64,000 nucleotides of DNA from Octopus vulgaris. Its lineage: Eukaryota. The stretch is from assembly GCA_951406725.2 (NCBI GenBank), contig OX597821.1, positions 88,846,001-88,910,000 of the forward strand, given 5' to 3'. Position 1 is the first letter of the stretch. Each line of letters begins with the position of its first letter. Position numbers and translations under genes: made by a program. Positions 4,684 to 29,086 of this stretch are shown in pieces. The notes below the pieces were generated by a model. The model did no database searches and was not told where the DNA came from. It saw only the letters and a list, made by a program, of their open reading frames with translations.

Positions 4684-6179
4684 GGGACGAAATCAAATAT
4701 TCAGTGATGAGAGAAAGGATCAGAAGAGAATTTTATCGCAGGGTAAGGGCAATACTCAAGACAAAGTTGAATGCAAGAAACTGGATCGAAGCGATCAATA
4801 CTTTAGTCATACCAGTTGTGACTTTGTTTCAATATCATTAACTGCTCAATTACTGAGATATGTAATCTCGACAGAAAATACGAAACTAGTTGACAATGCA
4901 TAGAAAACACCACCCTAAGGCAGATGTAGAACGACTTTACCTGCCAAGAAAAGCGGGTGGCAGTGGATTTTTGCAACTGGAACTAATAATGAAGATTGCT
5001 GCAATTCGCTTAGACACCTACCTGAAAAACTCTGATGACTGGATATTAAAACTTGTCTCAAAACGTGAAAATAAGAAAGCATAATACTCAGTAACAAAAC
5101 AGGCAAAGGAATATCTAAGTGAATTCCAAATAAACAAATTCCAGAATTATACTTACTAGAAACAAGCACATAAAAAGTTAAGTGTATGAAAACCCTTGCT
5201 AAAAGAGATACTTTAGATATTCTTATTGATAAATGGCAAGAAAAACCTCTCAATGTCAAATAGCCAAAGAGAGCTAATAGTGCCGATGTTGACAAAGCCC
5301 TTACCCATCAATGGCTAGTGGCTTCTGGCTTGAAATCAGAAACAGAAGTGTTTATCATAGCAGCCCAAGATCAATGCCTACCTACAATGAGATACCAGAC
5401 CAACATATTAAAGAACGGCAGTAGTTCAACATGTCCTGTATGTCAACAACAAAATGAAACCATTGATCATGTTGTCTCCATGTGCAATCTTCTTGCGCCT
5501 ACTGAGCATCTCAACAGGCATGATAGAACAGCACAATATATTCACTGGGTAATTTGCAAAGACCTGGACCTGCCACATGATAAAAACTGGTGGGAACACA
5601 AACCACCTCTAGTGCGTGAAAATGATCATATCAAACTCCTCTGGAACTTCACCATTCAAACTAACAGAGAGATAGATACGAATAGGCCAGACATCATATT
5701 GAAAGACTTCAGACAAAGAACATGCCTCCTCACTGATATGACTGCCGCAATCTGGATAAATGTATCTGTCAAGACCTACCGAAAACTGAGCAAGTATAAA
5801 GATCTTGAAATAGAAATTGGCAAGATGTGGAACCTCAAGACTAAAACAGTACCTATTGCCGTAAGTTCTCTTGGAACGATAGCAAAAGGGACTGATTGCT
5901 CCTTAGCTCAGATACCAGGAAACCCCAAAATGGCAGAAATTCAGAAGATAGGGCACATGGGAACTGCCCATATCCTACATAACATACTGTCTATGTGATC
6001 TCAAATTTTAAAACAAATTCATAATTTTCTTAAGTTTTCTTATACATTCTGCAGAAAAATACTATGTGCAAAACCAAATATATGGCATAACAATAACATG
6101 AACTTCTAACTTGTCTCTTGAGGTCTCGGGGTGAGACTTCGAGTCAACTTGTACAAACACAAAGCAAAAGTGGAACGTA
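4682..6179 (+). mobile_element. 5'-truncated non-LTR retrotransposon with restriction-like endonuclease (R4/Dong-like), pseudogenised, with 3' UTR
   Basis: HHPKADVERLYLPRKAGG.G motif, then CCHC knuckle CPVC...ETIDHVVSMC, RHD, RPDII and KLSKYKDL (ORF 5318-5998). In-frame stops at 5171 and 5261. Confidence 0.92.
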
Positions 6180-10817: not shown

Positions 10818-11651
10818 AATAGTCCAGAAAAATAGCATATAGTATAGTTCAGTATAGTTCATAGCAGTTTGTTGTTATACTCATTAGCACACAACTTAGA
10901 GTTTTGTGGACGTGCCCTATAAATACCAGAAGTATGTATATACGTATGTATACATACTTACATGTATATGTATGCCCATAAATGTACTCATATTATTCAT
11001 GACATATTTAATGGTATATAAATAAAATAATTATAATAATATACTTATTGTACATAGTTACAATCATTAACTCATGCACGGAGAGACATACATTGCAGCA
11101 ATTCTCTTGAGACAATAAATTCTACATATTGACAATTCGTGTGAAATAAATCACACCATTTGGGATGTAAATCATATCATCGTACTGTAGTCTACACGAA
11201 CATGTTACCTATGATTTTACTCACCTATATGTCATTCAACGCAGTCTAGTGCACCTCTGGTTAATTTATTCCACCTTGACAAAACATTGTGCACATCAGC
11301 AAATATACCATTTTTTGTTCTAATATAAAGGCAGTAATTACTTAGTGGCTATGAACGACAACTCAGTATTATCGGCTGATAAAGTATGTGAACAGAGAAA
11401 AGCAGCCGGACTGTGGTCCGATAGCACCGTACAAGCTAAGTGGTGTGTTTTTCTCTATTATTGTTTACAAGTAAAAAGAAAACTTTCTAGATATAATTTA
11501 TCCAGTGTATGTCTATCCATGTCCGAATGTATTTCAACATGTTAAACAGAACTGCACAAATCCCACTCTTTCTCTATATATATATACATATCTATTAACA
11601 GAATTAGATAAAAATACAAAGCTGTGAAAGATTTCAGAACATTTAAAAAAT

Positions 11652-11700
11652 GGTCTTACAGCTGTTTCTGGGATATTTTATATATCCCTTCATCGAAGAC
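11652..11700 (-). ncRNA. Hammerhead ribozyme motif, core mutated (UCGAUGA)
   Basis: GUCU-UCGAUGA-A GGGAUAU auaaa AUAUCCC A-GAAA-CAGCUG-UA-AGAC. Confidence 0.6.
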
Positions 11701-11803
11701 GGTGTGAGAAAATGGTTAAGCAACAGTTATTCTTCACTTCCTCCACTTCACTCTCTATTTCATATTTTATCTAGAATAACTATTGCTTAGCCATTTTCTC
11801 ACA

Positions 11804-11854
11804 CCGTCACTGATGAAGAGATATAGAAAATATCCCGGAAACAGCTGTAAGAGC
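11804..11854 (+). ncRNA. Hammerhead ribozyme motif, core intact, stem I eroded
   Basis: CUGAUGA (11810-11816), stem II GAGAUAU/AUAUCCC, GAAAC AGCU GUA (11838-11849). Confidence 0.7.
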
Positions 11855-12034
11855 TTCTATTTATAAAGTTCTGATATCTTTCACAGCCTTGGATTTTTAT
11901 CTCATTCTGTTAATTTTTTTATATACACACATGTCCTACGTTGTACACCTCATTCCCATAATCACCGAACCTTGAACTTAACTATAGTCTCTCCATAGCA
12001 CTTAGCATTACCTGACACCTTTCTCTCATAACCT

Positions 12035-20696: not shown

Positions 20697-21852
20697 TTGC
20701 TATCATTCCCAGGGCACCTATGACAACAGGCATTGTTTTAGTTTTCATGTTCCACATTTTGCTGATTTCTATTTCAAGATCTTTATATTTGCTCAGTTTT
20801 TGGTAGGTCTTGACACGTTTATATCGATTGGGACAGTCGTATCAGTGAGGAGGCATGTTCTTTGTCTGAAGTCTTTCAATATGATGTCTGGCCTATTTGC
20901 ATCTATCTTTCTGTCAGTTTGAATGGTGAAGTTCTAGAGCAGTGAGATGTGGTCATTTTCAAGCACTGGAGGTGGTTTGTGTTCCCACCAGTTTTTTTCA
21001 TGGGGCGAATCCAGGTTTTTTCAGATTACCCAGCGAATATATTGTGCAGCTCTATCATGCCTGTTGAGATACTCTGTAGGCGCTAGAAGACTGCACTTGG
21101 AGACAGCATGATCAATGGTTTCATTTTGTTGTTGACATACACGACATGTTGGGCTACTGCCGTTCTTTTATATGTTGGCCTAGTAGTTTCTTGTTGGTAG
21201 GCATTGATCTTGAGCTGCTATGATAAACCCTTCTGTTTCAGATTTTAAGCCAGAGGCCATTAGCTATTGATGGGTCAGGGCTTTGTCAACATCTGCATTA
21301 TTCGCTCTCTTTGGGTATTTGCCATACAGAGTTTTTTCTTGCCATTTATCATTCAGAATATCTAAGGCTGCAGTTTTAGCACGGGTTTTCATGCGCTTAG
21401 CTTTTTCTGTGCTTGTTTCTTGTATGTCTACTTCCGAAATTTGTTGTATTCGGAATTCGCTTAGATATTCCTTTGCCTGTTTTGTTACTGAGTATGATGC
21501 TTTCTTGATTTCATGTTTTGAGACAGGTTTTAACATCCAATCCTCAGAGTTTTTCAGGTAGGTGTCTAGGCCAATTGTAGCAATCTTCATTGTTATTGCC
21601 AGTTGTAAAAGTCCACGTCCTCCCTCTTTTCTTGGCAGATAAAGTCGTTCTGTATCTGCCTTAGGGTGGTGCATTCTATACATTGTGAACAGTTTTCGTA
21701 TTTTTCTGTCAAGATTACATATTTCAGTAATTGACCAGTTAACGATATTGAAACTGTAAGTCACAACTGATATGGCTAAAGCATTGTTCGCTTCGCACCT
21801 GTTTCTCGCATTCAGCTCTGTCTTGAGTATTGCTCTTACTCTGCGGTAACAT

Positions 21853-21855
<3 letters not shown>
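20697..21855 (-). mobile_element. Second R4/Dong-like LINE fragment, 5'- and 3'-truncated
   Basis: ORF 21264-21764 (MHHPKADTERLYLPRKEGGRGL...KYPKRANNADVDK) and the downstream CCHC/REL region are colinear with 4682-5885. Confidence 0.92.
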
Positions 21856-22055
<200 letters not shown>

Positions 22056-27028: not shown

Positions 27029-28023
27029 GTATGTATGCGTGTTACTCATGCGTTTCAATTTTTGCATACACACACACACTCACACGTTCGCAATAACGCA
27101 AACCAATATACAAATATACACATATGCCCATGTGTGCGTCTATGATTTATTTAGATTATTATTATTATTATTATTATATTTCTTCCCCCCTTCCCCACGA
27201 AATCATCGTCAGTAACATCCGCACACCACCGCATATATATGGAATCAAGATTTGCGGACTCATATTTGCAGCTGATTAAAAATCTGGAATCAGATTGAAG
27301 CCCTAACCTTTGTATTTTAGCAGTCGATATTTCTATGAATATTCTTGACTTCTGAACTGGCAAACACTAGAAGTTATTTTGGCCTCTTCGCATAGACGTC
27401 TCTGTGTGTGTGAGTACTCGCACACATTTATGTTTGCTTTCGTTTTTCTCTCTAATATTTTGTATTGTCGCTTTGTATAGATATTTCGCGGAAAGTGCTA
27501 TGTATTAAACGGAATGCGTACGTTAGTTACGTAAATACGTATACGAAATATACTATGATTATATGTCAAAGTGTTTTTGCGTGCTAAATATATTATGATT
27601 GTATATCAGTGTTTTTGTGTTCGTGTGCATGTGTTTTTGCGTTCGAATGTGTCTACTTATATGTATAAAAATATGTATGTGCTTCATTTATGTTTTTGCA
27701 TATACGTATACTTCGTTGCATGAGGTCTGTGTTGGAAGTATGTGTTTTGATTAAATATATGTTTGTAAATGTATACGTGTTTGTGCATATATTCAAGTGT
27801 TTGAGTTTCTCCTGTGAGAATATTGAACTACGTGTGTCATGAGTGTGCGCCTGTAAAAGTGACAGCGCGGGAGCATGCATATGGGTGCATCTTGATGAGA
27901 ATATATGTATATATTTATATGCATATATGTATATTTGTAAGTATACTTGTCTCTCTCTCTCTCACTCTCTCTCTCTCTATATATATATATTATATTAAAA
28001 ACTCGCCAAGAAAAATTTTGAAA

Positions 28024-28086
28024 CCACCTGATGAATGACTGCGACTCAAAAGTTTGATGACAGCAGACAGGAAACGATCGTAGTGG
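28024..28086 (+). ncRNA. Type I hammerhead ribozyme motif, core intact
   Basis: CCAC-CUGAUGA-AUGACUG...CAGACAG-GAAA-CGAUCG-UA-GUGG: 4-bp stem I, palindromic stem III ACGAUCGU, GUA site. Confidence 0.8.
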
Positions 28087-28437
28087 ATATTAATTATATT
28101 TTTTAATAATTGTTACATATTTAAATAATATAAACTAATTTATGTATTGGCTTAAGTCTTTCATTGTTTGATTTGCCTAATAGTGGTTTGGTCTCTAATT
28201 TAATATAATATAATATTTTACTATAAAATTGGATTCAATCCTAAATCTAATTTTTCCCTGTAAGTTTGGATTTATTCCCTAATATTTATTATATATATAT
28301 ATATATTATATTAAATTAGAGACAAAACCACTATTAGGCAAATCATAGAATAAAAAACTTAAGCCAATACATAAGATTATTTAATTTATATTATTTAAAT
28401 ATATAACAAAATTATTAAAAAAATATAATTAATATAT

Positions 28438-28502
28438 CACTACGATTGTTTCATGGCTGTTAATTTCTTTAAATTTTCAAGTCATAGTCATTCATCAGGT
28501 GG
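28438..28502 (-). ncRNA. Type I hammerhead ribozyme motif, core intact (mirror copy)
   Basis: CCAC-CUGAUGA-AUGACU...AGCCAU-GAAA-CAAUCG-UA-GUG. Confidence 0.75.
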
Positions 28503-28639
28503 TTTGAATATTTATCTTGGCGAGGTTTAAACAATGAATTTAATAATACAATTTAATATAATACAATATTTTACTATAAAATTGGATTCAATCCTAAATC
28601 TGATTTTTCCCTGTAAGTTTGGATTTATTCCCTAATATT

Positions 28640-28680
<41 letters not shown>

Positions 28681-29086
28681 TGCTATGGACAGACCATAGT
28701 TAAGATCCAGGTTCGGTGATTATGCGAATGAGAAGTCCAACGTAGGTCATATATTAGCATCCATGCATATATATAAAAATTTAACAAAATGAGATAAAAA
28801 TCCAAGGCTTTGAATGATTTCATAACATTTAAAAAGAGAAGGTCTTACAGCTGTTTGTGGTAAAATTTTATATCTCTTCATCGGAGACGGTTCGAGAAAA
28901 TGGTTAAGCAATCATTATTCTAGAAATTAAATCTTATATATATAATTTTTATATATATTTATGCTTATATATGACCTACGTTGGACTCCTCCTTCGCATA
29001 ATCACTGAACCTGGTGCTTAACTATAGTTTGTCCATAGCATTTACTCAGCATTACCTGAAGCCTATGGGTCTTCTTGACACCATTA

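What the first reader, a model, noticed from the sequence alone, without database searches (positions are those of the whole stretch)
27995..28650. Inverted-plus-direct repeat architecture with two intact-core hammerheads on opposite strands
The layout is A-B-(TA)-A'(inverted)-B-(TA). Both arms keep CUGAUGA, GAAA and GUA, while the stem II loop sequences have diverged considerably, hinting at constraint on the core or at two different templates. Transcription in either direction would yield a potentially self-cleaving RNA. The palindromic stem III (ACGAUCGU) suits dimeric cleavage.
Basis: partly seen in the sequence, partly recalled or inferred. Interest (0 to 1): 0.75.

Follow-up and report, generated by a model that had tools for sequence, protein, structure and literature searches.

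The report
Spliced Penelope leader copies, two insertions
The two opposite hammerhead motifs belong to two separate, likely dead insertions, each matching the front end of a Penelope-type jumping gene with its intron precisely removed, which suggests these elements copy their spliced message (likely twice per cut), although they are known for keeping introns.

Summary
The layout and both hammerhead cores are real, but this is not one element. It is two neighbouring insertions in a (TA)n tract, from two subfamilies (79% identical) of a Hydra-clade Penelope-like element (PLE) whose full RT/GIY-YIG units lie elsewhere in the genome. Both copies carry an exact exon1-exon2 junction. The parent has a 694-966-nt GT-AG intron there. 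Such spliced copies are common (231 exact matches against about 87 intron-bearing), start at the presumed transcription start, stop at one of two fixed 3' ends, and are interleaved with intron-bearing copies on a tree. 'B' is the PLE tail. In 73 of 76 head-to-head pairs exactly one arm has it, and 0 of 31 long pairs mix subfamilies, which fits one RNA copied from two internal start sites. Copies mutate neutrally in the core (6/684 vs 78/8730), the minus copy has lost the palindrome, and read-through RNA is predicted to pair the arms, so the bidirectional-ribozyme reading fails. Opposite-strand PLE hammerheads are in print; spliced PLE retrocopies I did not find in print. This scan reported the same reading earlier on another genome (e1-9506236).

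The parts
27950..27989 (.). (TC)n(TA)n microsatellite, left part of the target site
   Evidence: sequence
27987..27999 (-). possible 13-nt inverted stub of element 1 (reverse complement of the tail-less 3' end); AT-rich, so weak
   Evidence: read; similar stubs in L051, L059
27995..28291 (+). Element 1: spliced 5' leader of a Hydra-clade PLE, subfamily 1, with tail
   Evidence: exon 2 is 95-97% identical to intron-bearing copies L242, L257, L258, L259
27995..28014 (+). remnant of exon 1; exact splice junction 28014/28015 (703- and 716-nt introns in L225, L236)
28024..28086 (+). type I hammerhead: stem I 4 bp, core 28028-28034, long stem II with A.G at its base, palindromic stem III, predicted cut 28082/28083
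28214..28291 (+). tail 'B' of element 1: sequence between the two 3' end sites; in the parent it leads on to the ORF
   Evidence: L240, L246, L189
28292..28302 (.). short (TA)n between the 3' ends of the two insertions
28303..28538 (-). Element 2, main arm (A'): spliced leader, subfamily 2, ends without tail
   Evidence: 94.5-95.5% identical to intron-bearing L240, L241, L248, L249
28437..28502 (-). type I hammerhead, damaged: palindrome lost, 3-bp stem I, predicted cut 28441/28440
28512..28538 (-). exon 1 of element 2; exact splice junction 28512/28511
28539..28644 (+). Element 2, inverted 5'-truncated arm: tail 'B' only, head-to-head with A'
   Evidence: same layout in L043, L059, L260, L269, L282, L298, L305
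28645..28678 (.). (TA)n, right part of the target site

Best explanation
The region is two separate insertions in one (TA)n tract, each matching the intron-less 5' leader of a Hydra-clade Penelope-like element and likely made by reverse transcription of its spliced mRNA, leaving likely promoterless, dead copies. Shown: the parent has exon 1, a GT-AG intron, a hammerhead exon, the tail B and then an RT/GIY-YIG ORF; both window copies join exon 1 to the hammerhead exon exactly; such copies end at one of two fixed sites; head-to-head pairs carry the tail on one arm only. Inferred: transcription starts about 29 (sometimes about 43) nt before the donor, below two TATA-like boxes; the enzyme cuts both strands of (TA)n and each DNA end primes at one of two internal sites on the same RNA; the two cDNAs are joined head to head by microhomology. 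Because priming is internal, a normal spliced mRNA gives only a 230-330-nt leader copy, while longer copies come from the 3' pLTR, which keeps intron and promoter. The hammerheads are passengers here, copied uncut.
For: I predicted the intron from a sister subfamily, then found acceptor (87 of 91 matches with YAG directly at the junction) and donor (18 of 19 matches); 13 of those 18 donors pair with the acceptor 694-966 nt away. Full units: L240 (period about 4.97 kb), L246 (4.84 kb), L189. Spliced junction: 215 and 231 exact matches. In 71 junction copies the 5' end lies 14-37 nt before the donor and no main arm runs into the ORF. Of 21 copies reaching 42 nt before the donor, 17 are unspliced and continue upstream; 4 are spliced and stop within a few bases. 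TATA-like words at -68 and -57. Tree of 170 exons (113 spliced, 57 unspliced): 29 label changes, at least 16 forced by well-supported branches, 4 identical sets shared. One tail in 73 of 76 pairs, 50% expected. Arms differ by 67/4951; 0 of 31 pairs exceed 6%, against 71% of between-insertion comparisons. In element 2 each arm holds sequence that the other lacks, which a fold-back copy of one cDNA cannot give. In vitro, a PLE protein cut and extended both strands and started at two internal sites that bound the tail (PMC11167929).
Against: No ORF-linked copy of element 1's own subfamily was found among the 7 long stretches of it that I fetched; its nearest ORF-bearing relative is L246 at 90%. 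5 of 18 donors had no acceptor by my pattern. The transcription start is inferred from copy ends only. Samples are best hits and exact-pattern hits, not random; 18 of 188 exons were left unlabelled and out of the tree; the label is still more clustered than shuffles (29 vs 47.6), so some copying of short copies is possible. 3 of 76 pairs break the one-tail rule. L246 seems spliced at its 5' end (7 matching bases only) yet runs through the whole ORF, and the inverted arm of L304 includes the ORF start, so 'spliced means short' is not absolute. One RNA copied twice cannot be told from two RNAs of one locus. No target-site duplication can be read in (TA)n. Twin priming was not tested at the bench.
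Confidence: 0.8

Rival explanations
1. A functional two-way self-cleaving RNA locus: either strand gives an active hammerhead.
For: Both cores intact; + copy keeps the palindrome.
Against: Two separate insertions; 47 of 57 unselected copies also keep all 12 core bases and core and flank mutate alike; - copy damaged; read-through RNA predicted to pair the arms; presumed promoter absent.
Confidence: 0.03
2. The short copies are a self-propagating non-autonomous family (SINE- or retrozyme-like) founded by one or a few spliced retrocopies.
For: Spliced copies outnumber intron-bearing ones about 2.6 to 1; two all-spliced groups of 13-14 rows on the tree.
Against: Spliced and unspliced forms share 8 of the 17 stem II variants seen at least twice and need at least 16 label changes; I saw no head-to-tail arrays of the short unit in the loci read; TATA-like boxes lie outside the copies.
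Confidence: 0.1
3. The inverted arm arises by self-priming or fold-back, on an antisense template as proposed in PMC3846280.
For: Junctions show microhomology; seven inverted arms begin at positions 58-61, where stem III resembles exon 1.
Against: An antisense RNA cannot lose a sense GT-AG intron, yet both arms are spliced in pairs such as L274, L283, L286; in about half the pairs the truncated arm has tail sequence that the full arm lacks.
Confidence: 0.07
4. The junction is a DNA deletion or template jump, not splicing.
For: The junction is A-rich.
Against: It falls exactly at GT and AG, is the same across introns of 694-966 nt, and recurs in the sister subfamily with a different exon 1.
Confidence: 0.02

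Closest known systems
Hydra-clade EN+ Penelope-like elements (Craig et al. 2021, PMC8557442; passages and section 11 read)
   Same: C-terminal GIY-YIG, DKT, CxCX5C linker, CxxC and CxH, no CCHH, canonical hammerhead, (TA)n targets, inverted 5'-truncated copy, tail at one end.
   Different: Unit is 4.8-5.0 kb (paper: generally under 3 kb); tail about 80-95 nt (paper: 30-40 bp); 0.7-1 kb leader intron; abundant intron-less leader copies are not described in what I read.
PLE minimal hammerheads (Cervera and de la Pena 2014, PMC4209133; parts 1-2 of 4 read)
   Same: Type I, short stem I, long stem II, small palindromic stem III; the paper already reports dual motifs 100-700 bp apart on opposite strands, mostly solo motifs, and a D. 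virilis intron ending at helix I.
   Different: No G10.1-C11.1 pair and no extra base after A9 (A-U 113, A.G 42, U-A 28 of 188); the paper ascribes solo motifs to truncation, here most are spliced 5' leaders.
Poseidon from Anolis, in vitro (Frangieh et al. 2024, PMC11167929; parts 1-2 of 4 read)
   Same: Two internal RT start sites bounding the tail; AT-rich targets; both strands cut and extended; uncut RNA used.
   Different: Different clade; there the start sites lie inside the ORF, here upstream of it; no spliced copies or head-to-head products in the parts read.
D. virilis Penelope leader (Schostak et al. 2008, PMC2377424; passages read)
   Same: Internal promoter in the pLTR, intron shortly after the start (46 bp there, about 29-43 here).
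   Different: Intron described as retained in transposition; 75 bp there.
Non-LTR retrozymes (bioRxiv 10.64898/2026.07.22.740005; abstract and passages read)
   Same: Short, non-coding, hammerhead-bearing, pLTR-related.
   Different: Retrozymes are tandem units; these are solo or head-to-head and interleaved with their autonomous parent.
L1 twin priming (recalled, no call)
   Same: Two DNA ends prime on one RNA and give a 5' inversion.
   Different: Here the two start sites are fixed and the arms often overlap by 100-190 nt.

Membership tests
EN+ Penelope-like element (parent) | Single ORF with RT and C-terminal GIY-YIG | tested here: met
   P0001 has YRDD (267) and YIGST (636); Pfam gave no RT or GIY-YIG hit; Atlas neighbours at 0.96-0.97 carry HTH_animal and GIY-YIG on 26-100% of members; motif reading carries the call
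EN+ Penelope-like element (parent) | Direct pLTRs with hammerhead, inverted 5'-truncated copy, optional tail | tested here: met
   L189, L240, L246; one tail in 73 of 76 pairs
Hydra clade | DKT, no GxKF/Y, CxCX5C linker, CxxC and CxH, no CCHH, (TA)n target | tested here: met
   against PMC8557442 section 11
Hydra clade | RWK motif | tested here: inconclusive
   RIKWK at 41-45 in L246, close but not exact
Hydra clade | Groups with Hydra RTs on a tree | not tested
   no reference Hydra proteins were fetched
Penelope/Poseidon or Neptune clade | CCHH in the endonuclease; CX2-5CxxC linker (Neptune) | tested here: not met
   no CX2-5CxxC match and one cysteine before YIG
Processed (spliced) retrocopy | Exact loss of a GT-AG intron; 5' end at the transcript start | tested here: met
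   the start site itself is inferred
Type I hammerhead | Core CUGANGA/GAAA/UH with three stems | tested here: met
   stems imperfect in both window copies; no Rfam match
Type I hammerhead | Self-cleavage | not testable with these tools
   0 of 42 inverted arms start at the cut site (position 72); one starts at 73, which I read as an internal deletion
Non-LTR retrozyme | Head-to-tail tandem monomers | tested here: not met
   solo or head-to-head in the loci mapped; no genome-wide search for arrays was made

The most novel reading that the evidence does not exclude
PLEs copy their spliced sense mRNA, and do so twice per double-strand cut from two fixed internal sites. This one rule yields the inverted pLTR, the one-sided tail and the many solo hammerheads. 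It also explains intron retention: spliced transcripts give only short promoterless leaders, while new active copies inherit the unspliced 3' pLTR. That would settle the sense-versus-antisense template question left open in PMC3846280.
Probability: 0.5. Interest if true: 0.72.

Novelty: new variant of a known kind. Interest (0 to 1): 0.5.

Why it matters
As a locus it is transposon debris. As a class it bears on two stated open points: whether PLEs use a sense or antisense template (PMC3846280, Discussion) and why they keep introns ('significance unknown', PMC8557442). Hundreds of young copies with an exactly removed intron show that sense, spliced RNA is a template, and the one-tail rule gives a testable twin-priming model with the existing in vitro system. 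It also warns that many 'solo hammerheads' in animal genomes may be dead leader copies rather than functional ribozymes.

Tried and rejected
Rfam, whole window (150 of 246 rows listed, all below gathering score, microsatellite matches) and region (2 chance hits): no hammerhead. Pfam GIY-YIG search found an abundant Neptune-type PLE, not the parent. Search for a common continuation after B: 68 matches, none found, because the real continuation is AT-rich. First guess of the donor position: 0 matches. I first filed the parent as Penelope/Poseidon; motifs point to Hydra. Subfamily-level conservation of the core was not significant (1 of 12 vs 21 of 156 columns); the wider set was picked by the core, so it cannot show invariance. 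The ACGATCGT to ACAATTGT change keeps the palindrome but could be CpG decay. RNA: no RNA holder listed on record; the exact 700-nt GT..AG joint appears in contigs of 2 of 4 runs laid, but RNA is a guess there and the joined form exists as DNA, so I give it no weight. Look-up of earlier notes by sequence gave only unrelated phage notes. Literature searches for spliced or intron-less PLE copies and for octopus + Penelope + hammerhead listed nothing on this; I saw only listings for most. Arkhipova 2003, Evgen'ev 2005 and Lunse 2017 were not seen, and no supplements were opened; they may mention such copies or this family.

Full report
1. Observation. The layout is as described. A and A' align inverted at 79% over 554 columns and the B copies at 97-98%. 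Both cores are present, with predicted cuts at 28082/28083 (+) and 28441/28440 (-). Only the + copy has the palindromic stem III; the - copy has lost it (self-duplex +0.3 against -10.0 kcal/mol). The + copy has A.G at the base of stem II. Rfam finds no hammerhead at E<=10.

2. Two insertions. The window lies in a 2.8-Gb genome; I take it to be an octopus from its repeats and from earlier notes, which is inference. A and A' each head a repeat subfamily (1448 and 996 candidates, 40 scored each). Both subfamilies share B at about 96-99%, so the likeness of the two B copies is a family trait. Arms of one head-to-head insertion differ by 67 of 4951 columns (31 pairs with 100 or more columns, of 65 found; none above 6%), while 71% of comparisons between insertions exceed 6%. 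A and A' are therefore two events whose 3' ends meet in one (TA)n tract. Element 1 is A+B on +. Element 2 is A' on - with B as its inverted, 5'-truncated arm, a layout repeated in L043, L059, L260, L269, L282, L298 and L305. Which came first cannot be told.

3. The parent. A sister subfamily led to complete elements: L189 has an inverted 5' copy, a 1.77-kb pLTR, B, the ORF and a second pLTR. For the window's own group, L240 and L246 read hammerhead exon, B, ORF, 3' UTR, hammerhead exon; their ORFs are broken by frameshifts or stops. The 743-residue frame P0001 has YRDD, YIGST, DKT, CxCX5C, CYLC and CRH, with no GxKF/Y, matching the Hydra clade as described in PMC8557442 section 11. Pfam did not recognise it and no tree was built, so the clade rests on motifs. 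B is the sequence just past the pLTR, the PLE tail. No ORF-linked copy of element 1's exact subfamily was found in 7 long stretches.

4. The window copies are spliced. In the sister subfamily, long copies have a TTTTAG acceptor 9 nt before stem I, while short copies have instead a short sequence found upstream in the pLTR beside a donor-like signal. I predicted the same here. A first guess of the donor gave 0 matches. The second gave 91 acceptor matches (87 with YAG at the junction; a few may be spliced variants) and 19 donor matches (18 with GTATG); 13 of the 18 pair across 694-966 nt. Both window copies carry the exact exon join, at 28014/28015 and 28512/28511. With the same 25-nt 3' part, spliced matches number 231. 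In 71 junction copies (from 70 loci drawn from the first 100 listed of 215 matches) the 5' end lies 14-37 nt before the donor, no main arm enters the ORF, and 42 have an inverted arm. Of 21 copies that reach 42 nt before the donor, 17 are unspliced and continue; 4 are spliced and stop within a few bases. TATA-like words at -68 and -57 lie 26-28 nt before the two clusters of 5' ends. Spliced and unspliced exons interleave on a tree (170 of 188 exons, 18 unlabelled left out; 29 changes, at least 16 forced; shuffled mean 47.6). Exceptions: L246 appears spliced at its 5' end on 7 bases of evidence and runs through the ORF; the inverted arm of L304 includes the ORF start.

5. Mechanism. Exactly one arm carries the tail in 73 of 76 head-to-head pairs, against 50% if independent. 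A one-sided tail is noted in PMC8557442 without such a count in the passages I read. In about half the pairs the truncated arm holds tail sequence absent from the full arm, as in element 2, so it is not a fold-back copy of that arm. PMC11167929 (parts 1-2 of 4) shows a PLE protein cutting and extending both strands and starting at two internal sites that bound the tail. I infer twin priming: each end of the cut primes at one site, and the cDNAs join by microhomology. Arms never mix subfamilies, which favours one RNA or one locus. Internal priming on a normal spliced mRNA yields only the leader; longer copies come from the 3' pLTR and keep intron and promoter. Why the 3' intron stays unspliced is unexplained. 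The two-insertion, spliced-leader identity is well supported (about 0.9); twin priming on one RNA less so (about 0.6).

6. The ribozymes. In 57 copies chosen by the junction alone, 47 keep all 12 core bases, 52 keep the palindrome, and private mutations are 6/684 in the core and 78/8730 elsewhere: neutral decay of young copies. Variation between subfamilies (N7 free; A-U and U-A at the base of stem II) fits selection in active parents, but that set was chosen by the core. None of 42 inverted arms starts at the cut site. A read-through RNA is predicted to pair each hammerhead with the opposite arm.

7. What is known. Opposite-strand PLE hammerheads 100-700 bp apart, dimer-type stem III and low activity are in PMC4209133 (parts 1-2 of 4). 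Inverted copies, tails and (TA)n bias are in PMC8557442. A leader intron near the start is in PMC2377424 (passages). PMC3846280 (Discussion read) proposes an antisense template to explain intron retention and head-to-head repeats and calls the question open. I found no report of spliced PLE retrocopies in searches; several older papers and all supplements were not seen. This scan's note e1-9506236 gives the same reading for another genome; I saw it after reaching mine, and it is not independent support.

8. Verdict. Real feature; ordinary as a ribozyme pair; useful as genomic evidence on PLE mechanism. New variant of a known kind; interest 0.5.

Noticed in passing
window 28679-29045 and 11578-12004: A second repeat abuts the right (TA)n: inverted ends (72% over the length, 86% over the outer 100 nt) and a hammerhead-like motif on the minus strand near 28890 with a variant core (CCGAUGA; C in place of G12). 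A related pair with opposed motifs lies at 11578-12004. Probably another PLE family's head-to-head insertion.
   Followed up: partly
L091, L092, L098: A young, high-copy Neptune-type PLE with an upstream ORF and a 781-aa RT/GIY-YIG frame; its pLTR seems to carry a U3-A8 variant hammerhead core (L091 about 5566-5603). Many copies have an open 781-aa frame.
   Followed up: partly
L069:1-575: Another short head-to-head hammerhead family with the same palindromic stem III but a canonical G-C pair closing stem II.
   Followed up: no
P0001 residues 360-480 (L172): Asparagine-rich linker (37% N) between RT and endonuclease, like the N-rich inserts reported for rotifer Penelope in PMC3846280.
   Followed up: no
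window 28261-28268 (tail B) and L189 about 6700: The tail holds a donor-like GTAAGT and an acceptor-like TTTACAG lies just after the first ATG of the ORF: a possible second intron. Not tested.
   Followed up: no
L246:3575-8630: A full-length unit that appears spliced at its 5' pLTR (7 exon-1 bases) and unspliced at its 3' pLTR.
   Followed up: partly
L304: Spliced leader whose inverted arm joins the tail to the first 75 nt of the ORF, showing that the template extended into the ORF.
   Followed up: partly
L189 pLTR and 3' UTR: The exon-1 and donor region is internally repeated (about 1.2-kb period), with GTAAGT in one repeat and GAAAGT in the pLTR copies.
   Followed up: no
window 5264-5998 and 21264-21902: Fragments of a LINE-like ORF.
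   Followed up: no
L129-L131: 7.1-kb segmental repeats holding single-exon C2H2 zinc-finger frames, a LINE fragment and a stub of this element; also a 167-bp tandem array.
   Followed up: no
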